Source: Octopus sinensis (taxonomy: Eukaryota). From it: 24,396 nt of DNA. Shown one piece after another: positions 10,443 through 19,845 of this stretch; positions within the stretch are counted from its first letter, which is position 1, and every line of letters begins with the position of its first letter. The notes below the pieces were generated by a model that saw nothing but the letters and a program-made list of their open reading frames with translations, did no database searches and was not told where the DNA came from. The position numbers and the translations under genes were made by a program. The stretch covers positions 1 through 24,396 of the forward strand of contig NW_021836393.1 of NCBI RefSeq assembly GCF_006345805.1. Reading direction: 5' to 3'.

Positions 10443-11360
10443 TCCAGATAATAGAGGAAATACCAATTCAACTGCAATAATATTCATAATTAACTATTAT
10501 TTAGATAAATAGGAACATCTAAATCCAACCGAATAAGACAGAATAAAACAATATACATCATAAGTAAGATAATACCATAAGATAATACATATATAAAATG
10601 TATCTTACAGCTGTTTCAGCCTGTAGATAAGAGTATCTCATTATGCCCATATTAGTTAGATGTATTGAGGTAATATGCAGTTAAAAATGAGTTACTTTGG
10701 TACCTGTGTGTATATATATGTATGTAGATTTAGATTTTCGCTGTATGATATATGAACGTAATGACATTGTATATTGTGACATTGTATATTGTTTTGCATT
10801 ATTTTATTTTATTGAATTAATTTACTGACATCTCCCTTATGCATCTGTCTATATATTATGTTACACTATATTATATGTTGTATATTTAATATGTAATATG
10901 ATATATATTTTATTATGTTGTGTTACACTGTATTGCATTGTATTATATTATACTATATTTTATGTGGTATTTTCCATCTACTAAGTATTGTGAATAGCAG
11001 AAAGCACATATTCCTTTATTGGTATTATTAATAATAATAATAATGTTAATAGTTTTTAGTAATGTAATACAATGAACTTTGGACTTTGTATGTGTACACT
11101 TTGATGTGGATATATATATATATATATGTATATTCCAGTATATAGATCTGATTAACTGTAACCTTATGTGTATATATATTAGTATGTATATACTTATATA
11201 TATATATGTATATGTAGGTGGATATACGCTTATATATATATGTATATATGTATATATACATATTCTTGTATATGTGTACCTTGTTTAATATTCATATTTG
11301 CATTTTATATCTTCATTTTATATCTTTATAATTGTACTTATAATCTTTGACGAGGCCTTG

Positions 11361-11424
<64 letters not shown>

Positions 11425-11656
11425 TTCATTTTAACTGCATATTTACCTCAATACATCTGACTAATATGGGCATAATGCGATACTCTTATCTACAGGCTGA
11501 AACAGCCGTAAGATCCTTTTTATATGTATTATTCTTATGGCATTATCTTACTTATTGATGTATATTGTTTTATTCTGTCTTATTCTGTTGGATTTGGATA
11601 TTCCTATTTAATCTAAATAATTAGTTAATAAATTATATGAATTGGTATTATCTGGA
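10443..11656. repeat. Long inverted repeat (arms ~10443-10692 and ~11423-11656) of a hammerhead-bearing, probably Penelope-like repeat
   Basis: Left arm atcttacagctgtttcagcctgtagataagagtatctcattatgcccatattagttagatgtattgaggtaa is the near-exact reverse complement of right arm ttacctcaatacatctgactaatatgggcataatgcgatactcttatctacaggctgaaacagccgtaagat. Similarity extends over about 230-250 bp. Confidence 0.92.
11343..11514 (+). ncRNA. Split type I hammerhead ribozyme motif with ~135-nt insertion in stem-loop II
   Basis: Stem I atct(11343-46)/agat(11511-14); core TTGACGA(11347-53); stem II GGCCT(11354-58)/AGGCT(11494-98); GAAA(11499-502); CAGCCG-TA. The inverted copy has the perfect palindrome GAAACAGCTGTA. 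Confidence 0.65.
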
Positions 11657-18822: not shown

Positions 18823-19626
18823 TTTCAAATGGAAGAAAATGCAAAAGAGGGCAGTAAAGCGTTCGGGTAGATAGACAAGAGAAACAACAATTAGAAGGAC
18901 AAGCCAAAAAAAAGACGAGTGATTCTTGGCTTTGTTTCATCAGTCAAGTACCAGAAGTCACGACCATTTCGGTCAGTTACACTTGAAAATACTTATATAT
19001 ATATATTTATACATTAACTTGAATATACCTGTATATACTTACACATTAACTTCATTTTTCATATGTATATGTATGTATTTATATATACAAACATATGTAT
19101 GCATATAAATATATATACATATATGTATGGATGTATACACACACACACATATATGTGTGTGTGTATGTGTGTGTGTGTGTGTGTGTGTGAGTGTGAGTGT
19201 ATGTGTAGATATACACATATTTGTTTATTTATACCTGCATATATATAAATATATACTTATAGGTATTGATGAGGTCACAGAATGTATGACGAAAGAATTT
19301 TCACAGACGTGTAAACAAAAAATAATTGGAACAAAAGCTAAAGTGAATATTAAATAAATAATGTGTGTGTTTAAATGGCGAAAATGGCCATCCCCAAGTG
19401 TAGCAGTAAGTTACTATACATATATGTGTGTGTGTACATATATGCATTTATATATATATATAATTTATTATGTGAAATAGAAAGATGAATAATCTTGTAG
19501 TAGATTAATCAAAAGTTTAACCGATACCTTAGTAGCAAAAAATCACACAGCAGTAAACAGCACGGTTGGGGTACAACCATCTGGCTGTTGCAACCGTGCG
19601 TTGGTGCGGATAATTGAAATTAAAAC

Positions 19627-19762
19627 ATTATTGGTGAATTGAAGAAATGGAGCTGAACGCAGATTGAACAGAAATCGTTTTATTTCATTCTACACGTGTT
19701 TCGAAATAAAACGATTTCTGTTCAATCTGCGTTCAGCTCCATTTCTTCAATTCACCAATAAT
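19627..19762. repeat. Perfect 60-bp inverted repeat with 16-nt spacer
   Basis: Arm 19627-19686 is the exact reverse complement of 19703-19762; spacer is attctacacgtgtttc. Confidence 0.97.
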
Positions 19763-19788
19763 ATATATATATAATATTATATATATAT

Positions 19789-19825
<37 letters not shown>

Positions 19826-19845
19826 TATACATATACATACATATA

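What the first reader, a model, noticed from the sequence alone, without database searches (positions are those of the whole stretch)
19627..19762. Perfect 60-bp palindrome whose loop is a hammerhead 3' half, with inversion starting next to the predicted cleavage site
Seen: mismatch-free 60-bp arms. On the minus strand the spacer reads GAAA-CACGTG-TA-gaat, i.e. GAAA, palindromic stem III (ACACGTGT) and a GUA triplet, the same architecture as the 10602-10622/11499-11514 motif but a different sequence family. The duplicated arm begins 4 nt downstream of the predicted cleavage site. Known: inverted partial pseudo-LTRs are a hallmark of Penelope-like insertions. Inference: a recent footprint of reverse transcription reaching a ribozyme-defined RNA end and switching template. 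If transcribed, it also forms a perfect 60-bp dsRNA hairpin (a Dicer/ADAR substrate).
Basis: partly seen in the sequence, partly recalled or inferred. Interest (0 to 1): 0.72.

Follow-up and report, generated by a model that had tools for sequence, protein, structure and literature searches.

The report
Two-armed Penelope-like retrotransposon insertion
The perfect 60-base palindrome is a short, dead insertion of a Penelope-like jumping gene, made of two back-to-back partial copies inside a TA microsatellite (a known hallmark of these elements), and it was likely formed by copying the element's RNA from both cut DNA strands, not by stopping at the ribozyme's cut site.

Summary
Arms 19627-19686 and 19703-19762 are 60/60 complementary around a 16-nt spacer.

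The spacer, read on the minus strand, is the 3' half of a hammerhead-like motif. Longer copies of the same repeat carry the missing CUGAAGA box and an 11-bp helix II just upstream. Fourteen diverged subfamily copies keep the core and show compensatory changes in helix II. Rfam's hammerhead models do not detect it.

The repeat is the untranslated end of an abundant retroelement. Its 923-aa ORF folds like telomerase reverse transcriptase.

The palindrome is not a singular event. In two samples chosen without regard to palindromes, 35 further resolved pairs have head-to-head arms in (TA)n. Thirty-four end at fixed site A (about +62 after the cut site) on one side and fixed site B (about +215) on the other. 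None is A/A or B/B.

Inner joints do not fall on the predicted cut site: 0 of 82 ends lie within 2 nt. The window's long arm runs 12-16 nt past it.

This matches published Penelope-like element architecture (PMC8557442, PMC11167929). The scan noted the same pattern in other families of this genome. It is ordinary: a new member of a known kind.

The parts
19467..19706 (-). Long arm ('B arm'). This is a fragment of the retroelement's pseudo-LTR, RNA-sense on the minus strand. It runs from 12-16 nt upstream of the predicted hammerhead cut site (19706) through +1 to fixed end B ('...TTTCACATAAT', about +215), next to TA-rich repeat.
   Evidence: It is 97.8% identical over 232 nt to a natural reference copy (L028) from rel -211 to +16. 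The same B end next to (TA)n is seen in 28 of 29 sampled loci. In L021 the same stretch runs on into the ATG of the ORF.
19687..19702 (-). Spacer: the 3' half of the hammerhead-like motif (G12-A13-A14, palindromic helix III ACACGTGT, triplet GUA, then +1 to +4 GAAT). The predicted scissile bond lies between 19691 and 19690. The 5' half (CUGAAGA and the 5' strand of helix II) is absent from this copy, so this copy cannot fold the motif.
   Evidence: Sequence. The complete motif is seen in longer copies. Conservation and covariation.
19703..19706 (.). Joint: 4-nt microhomology GAAA/TTTC shared by the two arms.
   Evidence: Junction print (WIN: overlap GAAA). The same 31-nt joint occurs at a second, mirrored locus, C12167.
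19703..19762 (+). Short arm ('A arm'). The same element with RNA-sense on the plus strand, +5 to +64 after the cut site. It ends at fixed site A ('CACCAATAAT'), which is the ordinary 3' end of the element.
   Evidence: rel -4 to -63, 100%. L064, a plain 5'-truncated copy with the 923-aa ORF, ends at the same place next to (TA)n. A-ended copies also occur in the diverged subfamilies.
19763..19840 (.). (TA)n microsatellite flanking the A end. Together with the TA/TG-rich stretch 19415-19466 on the other side, it is the likely target site.
   Evidence: Sequence. Both outer ends of nearly all sampled copies abut (TA)n.

Best explanation
The palindrome is a two-armed, heavily 5'-truncated insertion of a hammerhead-bearing Penelope-like retroelement in a (TA)n microsatellite. 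It was likely made when both nicked target strands primed reverse transcription at two different fixed sites of the element's RNA: site A, about 62 nt after the predicted ribozyme cut, and site B, about 215 nt after it. The two cDNA ends were then presumably joined through the 4-nt GAAA/TTTC microhomology.

Shown:
- The arms are copies of the element's pseudo-LTR in opposite orientation.
- One arm ends at A and the other at B.
- The spacer is the 3' half of the element's hammerhead-like motif.
- The long arm includes sequence from upstream of the cut site.
- This architecture is the rule in the family.

Inferred:
- Each arm is a separate cDNA primed from one target strand, possibly on one RNA with the A-primed enzyme ahead of the B-primed one.
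- Both cDNAs stopped early, near the base of the stable helix II.
- The two 3' ends annealed at a short complementary motif and served as templates for each other's second strand.

The ribozyme cut itself played no part in this copy, and the copy is non-functional: it has no ORF and no 5' half of the ribozyme.
For: (1) Repeat family. The stretch has at least 88 matches in the own genome.

(2) Element identity.
- Longer copies run on into the 3' UTR and the C-terminal part of a 923-aa ORF.
- The RT piece has 9889 first-look candidates; 150 were scored, many with open frames of 800-923 aa.
- The AlphaFold model (pLDDT 76.8, pTM 0.74) hits telomerase RTs first (6zdq E 8.8e-9, 3du5), then other RTs.
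- In an alignment of P0001 with 38 homologs, motifs that are near-invariant where at least 30 sequences have a residue are DKT, KDHK, FD..FYPSI, MGS, YRDD, SNH and a C-terminal Y...Y.G...R...H, C.LC..E.
- Tandem/pLTR arrangement is seen in L021 and L104/L103.

(3) Two fixed ends.
- L064 ends at A next to (TA)n.
- In the sample drawn with the B-specific 155 nt (29 loci), 20 loci have an abutting inverted arm. Three more have one further in.
- That gives 23 resolved pairs, 22 with the partner ending at rel -58 to -69 (A) and one at -43.
- In the sample drawn with the region upstream of the ribozyme (30 loci), 13 pairs are resolved and all are A/B. One duplicates a locus of the first sample.
- Total: 35 pairs besides the window, of which 34 are A/B, 1 is atypical, 0 are A/A and 0 are B/B.

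(4) Two cDNAs rather than one.
- In 12 of 30 pairs the A arm reaches more than 5 nt further upstream than the B arm.
- At L109 the very same joint occurs in mirror image, with the spacer-bearing arm ending at A.
- Neither can arise by a cDNA copying itself.

(5) Joints show 1-8 nt microhomology or 1-20 nt fillers, some of which duplicate adjacent sequence.

(6) Literature.
- A purified Penelope-like protein cuts and extends both DNA strands. It starts RT at two internal RNA sites that define the 'tail', prefers AT-rich targets and uses mostly ribozyme-unprocessed RNA (PMC11167929, main text read).
- An inverted 5'-truncated copy, a tail often at one end only, and (TA)n targets are described for these elements (PMC8557442, passages).
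Against: - The window copy on its own (long arm 16, short arm -4) is equally compatible with a single cDNA snapping back on itself.
- Pfam finds no RT or GIY-YIG domain in the ORF, even at E <= 1. PDB sequence searches find nothing.
- Only 2 of 39 aligned homologs hit PF01541.
- The published in-vitro work saw no difference in start site between the two strands. That sits uneasily with a strict A/B asymmetry.
- The published 'tail' is 30-40 bp; here A and B lie about 150 nt apart.
- Priming, pausing and joining steps are all inferred from end products.
- Post-insertion deletion at palindrome centres could have reshaped some joints.
Confidence: 0.68

Rival explanations
1. Snap-back of a single cDNA. 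The B-primed cDNA stopped 16 nt past the cut site. Its 3' GAAA folded back on TTTC (19683-19686), and the enzyme copied the cDNA itself to make the short arm.
For: The window's geometry fits exactly: 4-nt microhomology and a 16-nt loop. Eighteen of 30 pairs have the A arm no longer than the B arm.
Against: It gives no reason why the copied arm should stop at site A, the ordinary 3' end, in 34 of 35 pairs. It cannot make the 12 of 30 pairs whose A arm reaches further upstream than the B arm, nor the mirrored twin L109.
Confidence: 0.12
2. One reading: reverse transcription ran to an RNA 5' end created by hammerhead self-cleavage and switched template there.
For: The joint lies within 16 nt of the predicted site. 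Two loci of the biased sample (L002: 2 and -1; L013: -1 and -1) have both ends at the site. In the first unbiased sample 20 of 40 ends lie within 45 nt of the site; I counted these by hand from the input table.
Against: The window's long arm contains 12-16 nt from upstream of the site, so that template was uncut. Zero of 82 ends in the unbiased samples lie within 2 nt of the site. Nine of the nearby ends lie upstream of it. The strongest hot spot is 161-172 nt upstream. The published enzyme uses unprocessed RNA.
Confidence: 0.07
3. Post-insertion decay. A longer two-armed insertion, such as the 0.8-2.5 kb palindromes seen elsewhere, lost its centre by deletion, as long palindromes tend to do.
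For: Long-armed versions exist (L021 2 kb, L054 2.5 kb, L055/L056 824 nt). Microhomology at the joint is also typical of deletions.
Against: Inner ends cluster at the same position in both arms (161-172, perfect palindromes L033-L035, L080, L081). Some fillers duplicate adjacent sequence. These features point to events during synthesis. The identical joint in a mirrored second locus is unlikely by random deletion.
Confidence: 0.08
4. Assembly or fold-back sequencing artefact on a small unplaced contig.
For: The window is a whole 24.4-kb unplaced contig.
Against: The same architecture is seen at dozens of loci on chromosome-scale contigs, with different joints. The arms are bounded by the element's two natural ends, not by read-length-scale folds. 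The structure is what the literature describes for these elements.
Confidence: 0.03

Closest known systems
Penelope-like element insertions with an adjacent inverted 5'-truncated copy and a one-sided 'tail' (Craig et al. 2021, PMC8557442; passages seen)
   Same: Head-to-head partial copies, an extension present at one end only, a preference for (TA)n microsatellites, pseudo-LTRs from partial tandems, and a hammerhead in the pLTR of canonical clades.
   Different: Both arms are extremely short here (about 240 and 60 nt), so the result looks like a bare palindrome. The distance between the two ends is about 150 nt, not 30-40 bp.
Poseidon element of the green anole studied in vitro (Frangieh et al. 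2024, PMC11167929; main text read)
   Same: Both target strands are cut and extended. RT starts at two internal RNA sites. Targets are AT-rich. Ribozyme cleavage is not needed and unprocessed RNA is the main template.
   Different: There the start sites lie 111-118 nt inside the ORF and no strand difference was seen. Here they lie in the 5' UTR part of the pLTR, and genomic pairs are strictly A on one side and B on the other.
Minimal or dimeric type I hammerheads of metazoan Penelope-like elements (Cervera and de la Pena 2014, PMC4209133; passages seen)
   Same: Location in the pLTR, a long helix II, a weak helix I, a 2-bp helix III with a palindromic loop (ACACGUGU), and G10.1-C11.1 in the window's family.
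   Different: Helix II carries a loop of about 33 nt. Rfam's hammerhead models give no hit even at E <= 10. Cleavage is untested.
Twin priming of human L1 (recalled: Ostertag and Kazazian 2001; not read here)
   Same: The second nicked strand primes on the RNA internally and gives an inverted segment joined by microhomology.
   Different: L1 twin priming inverts a different part of the element and makes no palindrome. Here both cDNAs cover the same sequence, and both start sites are fixed.

Membership tests
Penelope-like elements (canonical, C-terminal endonuclease) | Reverse transcriptase related to telomerase RT | tested here: met
   The AF2 model of the 923-aa ORF (pLDDT 76.8) gives as best Foldseek PDB hits telomerase RTs (6zdq, 6zdu, 3du5, 6zd1; E 9e-9 to 4e-8), followed by DRT, retron, group II and L1 RTs. 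A YRDD motif is conserved. Pfam RVT_1 does not hit.
Penelope-like elements (canonical, C-terminal endonuclease) | GIY-YIG endonuclease fused to the RT | tested here: inconclusive
   There is a C-terminal pattern Y..(12)..Y.G..R...H, C.LC..E, N, which is near-invariant where at least 30 of the 39 aligned sequences have a residue. I read it as GIY-YIG from memory. PF01541 hits 0 times on P0001 and in 2 of 39 aligned homologs. It is precomputed on the best homolog P0002. ESM Atlas neighbour clusters carry PF01541 in 26-50% of members.
Penelope-like elements (canonical, C-terminal endonuclease) | Pseudo-LTRs from partial tandems | tested here: met
   In L021 the 3' UTR with the ribozyme runs on through about 235 nt into the ATG of a next ORF. 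L104/L103 form one element with the same region at both ends.
Penelope-like elements (canonical, C-terminal endonuclease) | Inverted 5'-truncated copy next to the insertion; 'tail' at one end only | tested here: met
   35 resolved pairs: 34 A/B, 1 atypical, 0 A/A, 0 B/B. The tail is about 150 nt here, against 30-40 bp in print.
Penelope-like elements (canonical, C-terminal endonuclease) | AT-rich or (TA)n target | tested here: met
   Both outer ends abut (TA)n in the window and in nearly all printed junctions.
Hammerhead ribozyme, type I (Penelope-like variant) | Core boxes CUGANGA and GAAA, A15.1-U16.1, cleavage triplet NUH | tested here: met
   Present in full copies. Invariant in 15 of 15 aligned sequences, except N7 (A to C in L078). 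The window copy itself holds only the 3' half.
Hammerhead ribozyme, type I (Penelope-like variant) | Helices I-III supported by covariation | tested here: met
   89.7% of cells are paired, against 32-52% when the partner is slid. Two helix II pairs change on both sides (CG/UA/UG and GC/AU/GU). 0 of 500 shuffles reach the covariation score. Caveats: the sequences are related, and I drew the structure from these same sequences.
Hammerhead ribozyme, type I (Penelope-like variant) | Match to the Rfam hammerhead covariance models | tested here: not met
   No hit at gathering score on 8 loci. No hit at E <= 10 on L009:1330-1600 or L077:880-1080.
Hammerhead ribozyme, type I (Penelope-like variant) | Self-cleavage | not testable with these tools
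   This needs an in-vitro transcription and cleavage assay. Published Penelope-like hammerheads cleave poorly or need the protein.

The most novel reading that the evidence does not exclude
Penelope-like enzymes insert by a strictly asymmetric double priming: one target strand always starts cDNA at site A and the other at site B of the same RNA. The two same-sense cDNAs then complete each other by annealing at short self-complementary motifs. The palindromes of the hammerhead region (TTTCGAAA, ACACGUGU) and others (CCATGG, ACCGGT) thus act as preferred joints. The bare 60-bp palindrome would be the minimal product of that reaction.
Probability: 0.3. Interest if true: 0.55.

Novelty: new member of a known kind. 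Interest (0 to 1): 0.25.

Why it matters
By itself the palindrome is a dead fragment of a retroelement and an example of a published insertion architecture.

Its value is as a clean, minimal specimen. The family gives a large natural set of two-armed insertions whose outer ends are fixed (A on one side, B on the other) and whose inner joints record where cDNA synthesis stopped. Such sets can test the in-vitro model that Penelope-like proteins extend both DNA strands from internal RNA sites. They also show that ribozyme-cut RNA is rarely, if ever, the template.

For annotation, it warns that perfect hairpins of this kind in (TA)n are transposon footprints. They are not hairpin-RNA genes or assembly errors.

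Tried and rejected
- Raw-read check. on 19480-19770 laid only short Logan contigs (about 60-90 nt) from 4 runs, and no listed piece bridges the joint with 31 nt on both sides. This locus therefore remains unconfirmed by reads. No RNA holder was listed, so expression, small RNAs and editing could not be addressed.
- Rfam scan of the whole window. It gave only sub-threshold microRNA-model hits on microsatellites. I rejected these as low-complexity noise.
- Pfam on short decayed ORFs and on the 923-aa ORF: nothing useful.
- PDB sequence search with the protein and with a 39-sequence profile: nothing relevant.
- MFE folding of the hammerhead region: z = -0.79. Helix II is kept but the full three-way fold is not the minimum.
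- My first reading was that the short arm's outer end was an internal priming site special to inverted arms, and that B-ended arms were about 1% of copies. L064 and the second sample showed this was wrong: A is the ordinary 3' end and B ends are common.
- MITE, foldback DNA transposon or hairpin-RNA gene: rejected because both arms are colinear with the retroelement's pLTR.
- Earlier-notes look-ups by place and by sequence for this window returned nothing.

Full report
**1. The observation**

The sequence and the repeat finder confirm two 60-nt arms, 19627-19686 and 19703-19762. They are 100% complementary and separated by the 16 nt ATTCTACACGTGTTTC. On the minus strand the spacer reads GAAACACGTGTAGAAT. 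As RNA the stretch folds into a single hairpin of -101.2 kcal/mol (z = -19.4). This is far beyond chance.

**2. It is a copy of a repeat**

A search of the own genome (2.72 Gb, 13,516 contigs; the window is the whole contig C12864) with 19470-19770 gave 88 matches. They fall into two classes:
- Copies that stop matching at 19706 and then continue with other sequence.
- Copies that also carry a palindrome, but with different inner joints.

Read on the window's minus strand, the continuation is the missing half of a hammerhead-like motif...CUUC CUGAAGA G-AAAGACACAA...(loop)...UUGUGCCUUU-C GAAA CACGUG UA|GAAU....

**3. The hammerhead-like motif**

I fetched 14 copies of diverged subfamilies. Their RT piece is 86-94% identical and their ribozyme region 70-83% identical. 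I aligned 13 of them (L068, which reads the same as L065 over this region, was left out) with two copies of the window's family (A1, 15 sequences).
- The boxes CUGANGA and GAAA, the A15.1-U16.1 pair and the GUA triplet are invariant. The one exception is N7 in a single sequence, which is the one free position of the box.
- For the structure I drew (helix I proximal and distal, helix II of 11 bp, helix III of 2 bp), 89.7% of cells pair, against 32-52% when the partner is slid by 1-3 columns.
- Two helix II pairs change on both sides (CG 5, UA 5, UG 5; GC 8, AU 5, GU 2).
- 0 of 500 shuffles reach the covariation score.

Caveats: the sequences are related, and I derived the structure from them.

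Helix III (ACACGUGU, or ACAUGUGU in the other subfamilies) is short and self-complementary. Helix II is long and helix I is weak in the window's family. These are the traits that Cervera and de la Pena describe for hammerheads of Penelope-like elements, which they think act as dimers and which cleave poorly in vitro (PMC4209133, passages).

Evidence against:
- Rfam's hammerhead models give no hit at gathering score on 8 loci, nor at E <= 10 on two short stretches.
- The minimum-energy fold is unremarkable (z = -0.79).

Cleavage is untested. The window copy holds only the 3' half, so it cannot form the motif.

**4. The element**

Longer copies run from the ribozyme region back through about 650 nt of 3' UTR into an ORF.
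- The RT piece has 9889 first-look candidates in the genome. Of these, 150 were scored, many with open frames of 800-923 aa.
- One copy (L064) has a 923-aa open frame.
- Pfam finds nothing in it, even at E <= 1. PDB sequence searches find nothing.
- A search of the large protein collection gave 512 relatives at E <= 1e-5. The best are 41-43% identical, and they carry PF26215, PF28514 and sometimes PF01541.
- An AlphaFold model built on 39 aligned sequences is confident (pLDDT 76.8, pTM 0.74).
- Its best Foldseek matches in the PDB are telomerase reverse transcriptases, followed by other RTs.
- Conserved motifs include DKT, KDHK, FD..FYPSI, MGS, YRDD and SNH, plus a C-terminal pattern that I read, from memory, as GIY-YIG.

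In L021 the ribozyme region is followed after about 235 nt by the ATG of a further ORF. That is the partial-tandem 'pseudo-LTR' arrangement. I therefore file the element as a Penelope-like element with a C-terminal endonuclease. The endonuclease domain is supported only weakly.

**5. Two fixed ends**

L064 is a plain, slightly 5'-truncated copy. It ends at '...CATTTCTTCAATTCAC' next to (TA)n, 58-62 nt after the predicted cut site. That is exactly where the window's short arm ends.

The short arm's outer end (site A, rel -58 to -69) is therefore the element's ordinary 3' end. The long arm runs about 150 nt further, to '...TTTCACATAAT' (site B), also next to (TA)n.

*First sample.* I drew this with the 155 nt that only B-ended arms have (108 candidates, 40 scored, 29 loci kept).
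- 20 loci have an abutting inverted arm: 19 by BLAST and L053 by eye.
- Three more have one further in (L054-L056, arms 824 nt to 2.5 kb).
- The outer end of L042's arm lies beyond the locus.
- That gives 23 resolved pairs (L039 holds two). The partner ends at A in 22 and at -43 in one, L040.
- The rest are L026 (complex), L029 (a near-full-length copy starting at +25), L032 (two short tandem units), L038 (single arm), and L036 with L052 (the two arms of one 2-kb palindrome, one of which runs on into an ORF).

*Second sample.* I drew this with the 156 nt upstream of the cut site (721 candidates, 40 scored, 30 loci).
- 13 pairs have both outer ends in view, and all are A on one side and B on the other.
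- One of them is the same locus as L028 of the first sample.

*Total.* Besides the window there are 35 resolved pairs: 34 A/B, 1 atypical, no A/A and no B/B. The 9 extra palindromic loci of the first, biased search are A/B as well.

**6. Inner joints**

I measured joints against a natural reference copy, with rel 0 as the base opposite RNA +1. The window's long arm ends at rel 12-16 and its short arm at -4 to -8. They share GAAA/TTTC.

Arm ends within 2 nt of the cut site:

| Sample | Ends within 2 nt |
|---|---|
| First unbiased sample, paired arms | 0 of 40 |
| First unbiased sample, single arms | 0 of 4 |
| Second unbiased sample | 0 of 38 |
| Biased sample | 4 of 18 (both ends of L002 and of L013) |

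The strongest hot spot is 161-172 nt upstream, with 11 of 40 and 4 of 38 ends. Several perfect palindromes are centred there (L033-L035, L080, L081), one of them with two extra G. I take this, by inference, as the 5' end of pLTR transcripts.

In the first sample, half of the ends (20 of 40) lie within 45 nt of the cut site. Nine of them lie upstream of it, so uncut RNA was the template there too.

Positions 12-22, at the 3' foot of helix II, recur: 4 of 40 ends in the first unbiased sample and 6 of 18 in the biased sample.

Joints show 1-8 nt of microhomology or 1-20 nt of filler, and some fillers duplicate adjacent sequence. Centres of perfect palindromes sit on short self-complementary motifs (TTTCGAAA, CCATGG, ACCGGT).

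**7. One cDNA or two**

A cDNA that folds back and copies itself would explain the window copy. It cannot explain three things:
- Why the copied arm stops at A.
- The 12 of 30 pairs whose A arm reaches more than 5 nt further upstream than the B arm.
- Locus L109 (C12167), where the same 31-nt joint occurs in mirror image, with the spacer-bearing arm ending at A and the other running to B, in unrelated flanks.

Two separately primed cDNAs fit all cases. This agrees with the in-vitro study of a Penelope-like protein (PMC11167929, main text read):
- The protein cuts and extends both strands.
- It initiates at two internal RNA sites that define the genomic 'tail'.
- It prefers AT-rich DNA.
- It uses mainly ribozyme-unprocessed RNA.
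- Reads starting at the cut site were not found.

It also agrees with the described architecture: an inverted 5'-truncated copy, a tail often at one end only, and (TA)n targets (PMC8557442, passages).

Two points differ. The tail here is about 150 nt rather than 30-40 bp. The in-vitro work saw no strand difference in start site, whereas the genomic pairs are strictly A/B.

**8. What could not be done**

The other laid only short contigs that do not bridge the joint. Expression, small RNAs and editing of the hairpin could not be examined.

Papers:
- Of the bioRxiv preprint 10.64898/2026.07.22.740005 I saw only the outline and abstract.
- Of PMC13282606 I saw only passages.
- L1 twin priming is recalled, not read.

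**9. Verdict**

The palindrome is real in the assembly. It is explained as a minimal two-armed insertion of a hammerhead-bearing Penelope-like element. The link to the ribozyme's cut site is coincidental for this copy. Earlier notes of this scan describe the same two-armed, two-fixed-ends pattern in other repeat families of this genome. My counts agree with them for this family. Novelty is low: a new member of a known kind.

Noticed in passing
window 10506-10673 and 11443-11610: A second inverted pair of another repeat family (83-nt and 55-nt blocks, 94-95% complementary, about 770-995 nt apart, TA repeats between). It may be another two-armed insertion.
   Followed up: partly
L033, L034, L035, L038, L045, L048; L080, L081: Arm ends pile up 161-172 nt upstream of the cut site at 'A/GTTTCGCCATGGGC'. 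L033 has two extra G at the centre. This likely marks the transcription start in the pLTR, and shows that whole uncut leader RNAs were copied.
   Followed up: partly
L109 = G000:C12167:18807-21837: The window's exact 31-nt joint recurs at an unrelated locus in mirror image, with the A and B ends swapped. Both arms there share the same diagnostic substitutions.
   Followed up: yes
L021 (C8:65542800-65549300), L054 (C5:78049000-78056000), L055, L056: Giant head-to-head palindromes of the same element: arms of 2 kb (95.7% alike), 2.5 kb (98.0%) and 824 nt (99.3% and 96.4%), with spacers of 0.4-1.6 kb. L055 and L056 share the same inner end of the A arm.
   Followed up: partly
P0001 = L064:2588-5356:-: The 923-aa ORF of a very abundant element gets no Pfam hit at all in the local library. 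Its relatives carry the recent families PF26215 and PF28514. Two long disordered inserts (516-587, 660-782) separate the folded domains.
   Followed up: partly
L032 / L014 (C3:158056...): Two short B-ended units (rel -211 to +45) lie in direct tandem, separated by TA repeat, with no inverted arm.
   Followed up: no
window, many places: 170 sub-threshold Rfam hits to microRNA models (mir-297, mir-3149, mir-466 and others) all fall on TA/TG microsatellites. They are low-complexity false positives.
   Followed up: no
L029 (C10:10967260-10970412), L092: Near-full-length copies start at +25 and +15 after the predicted cut site. That is close to the site but not at it.
   Followed up: no
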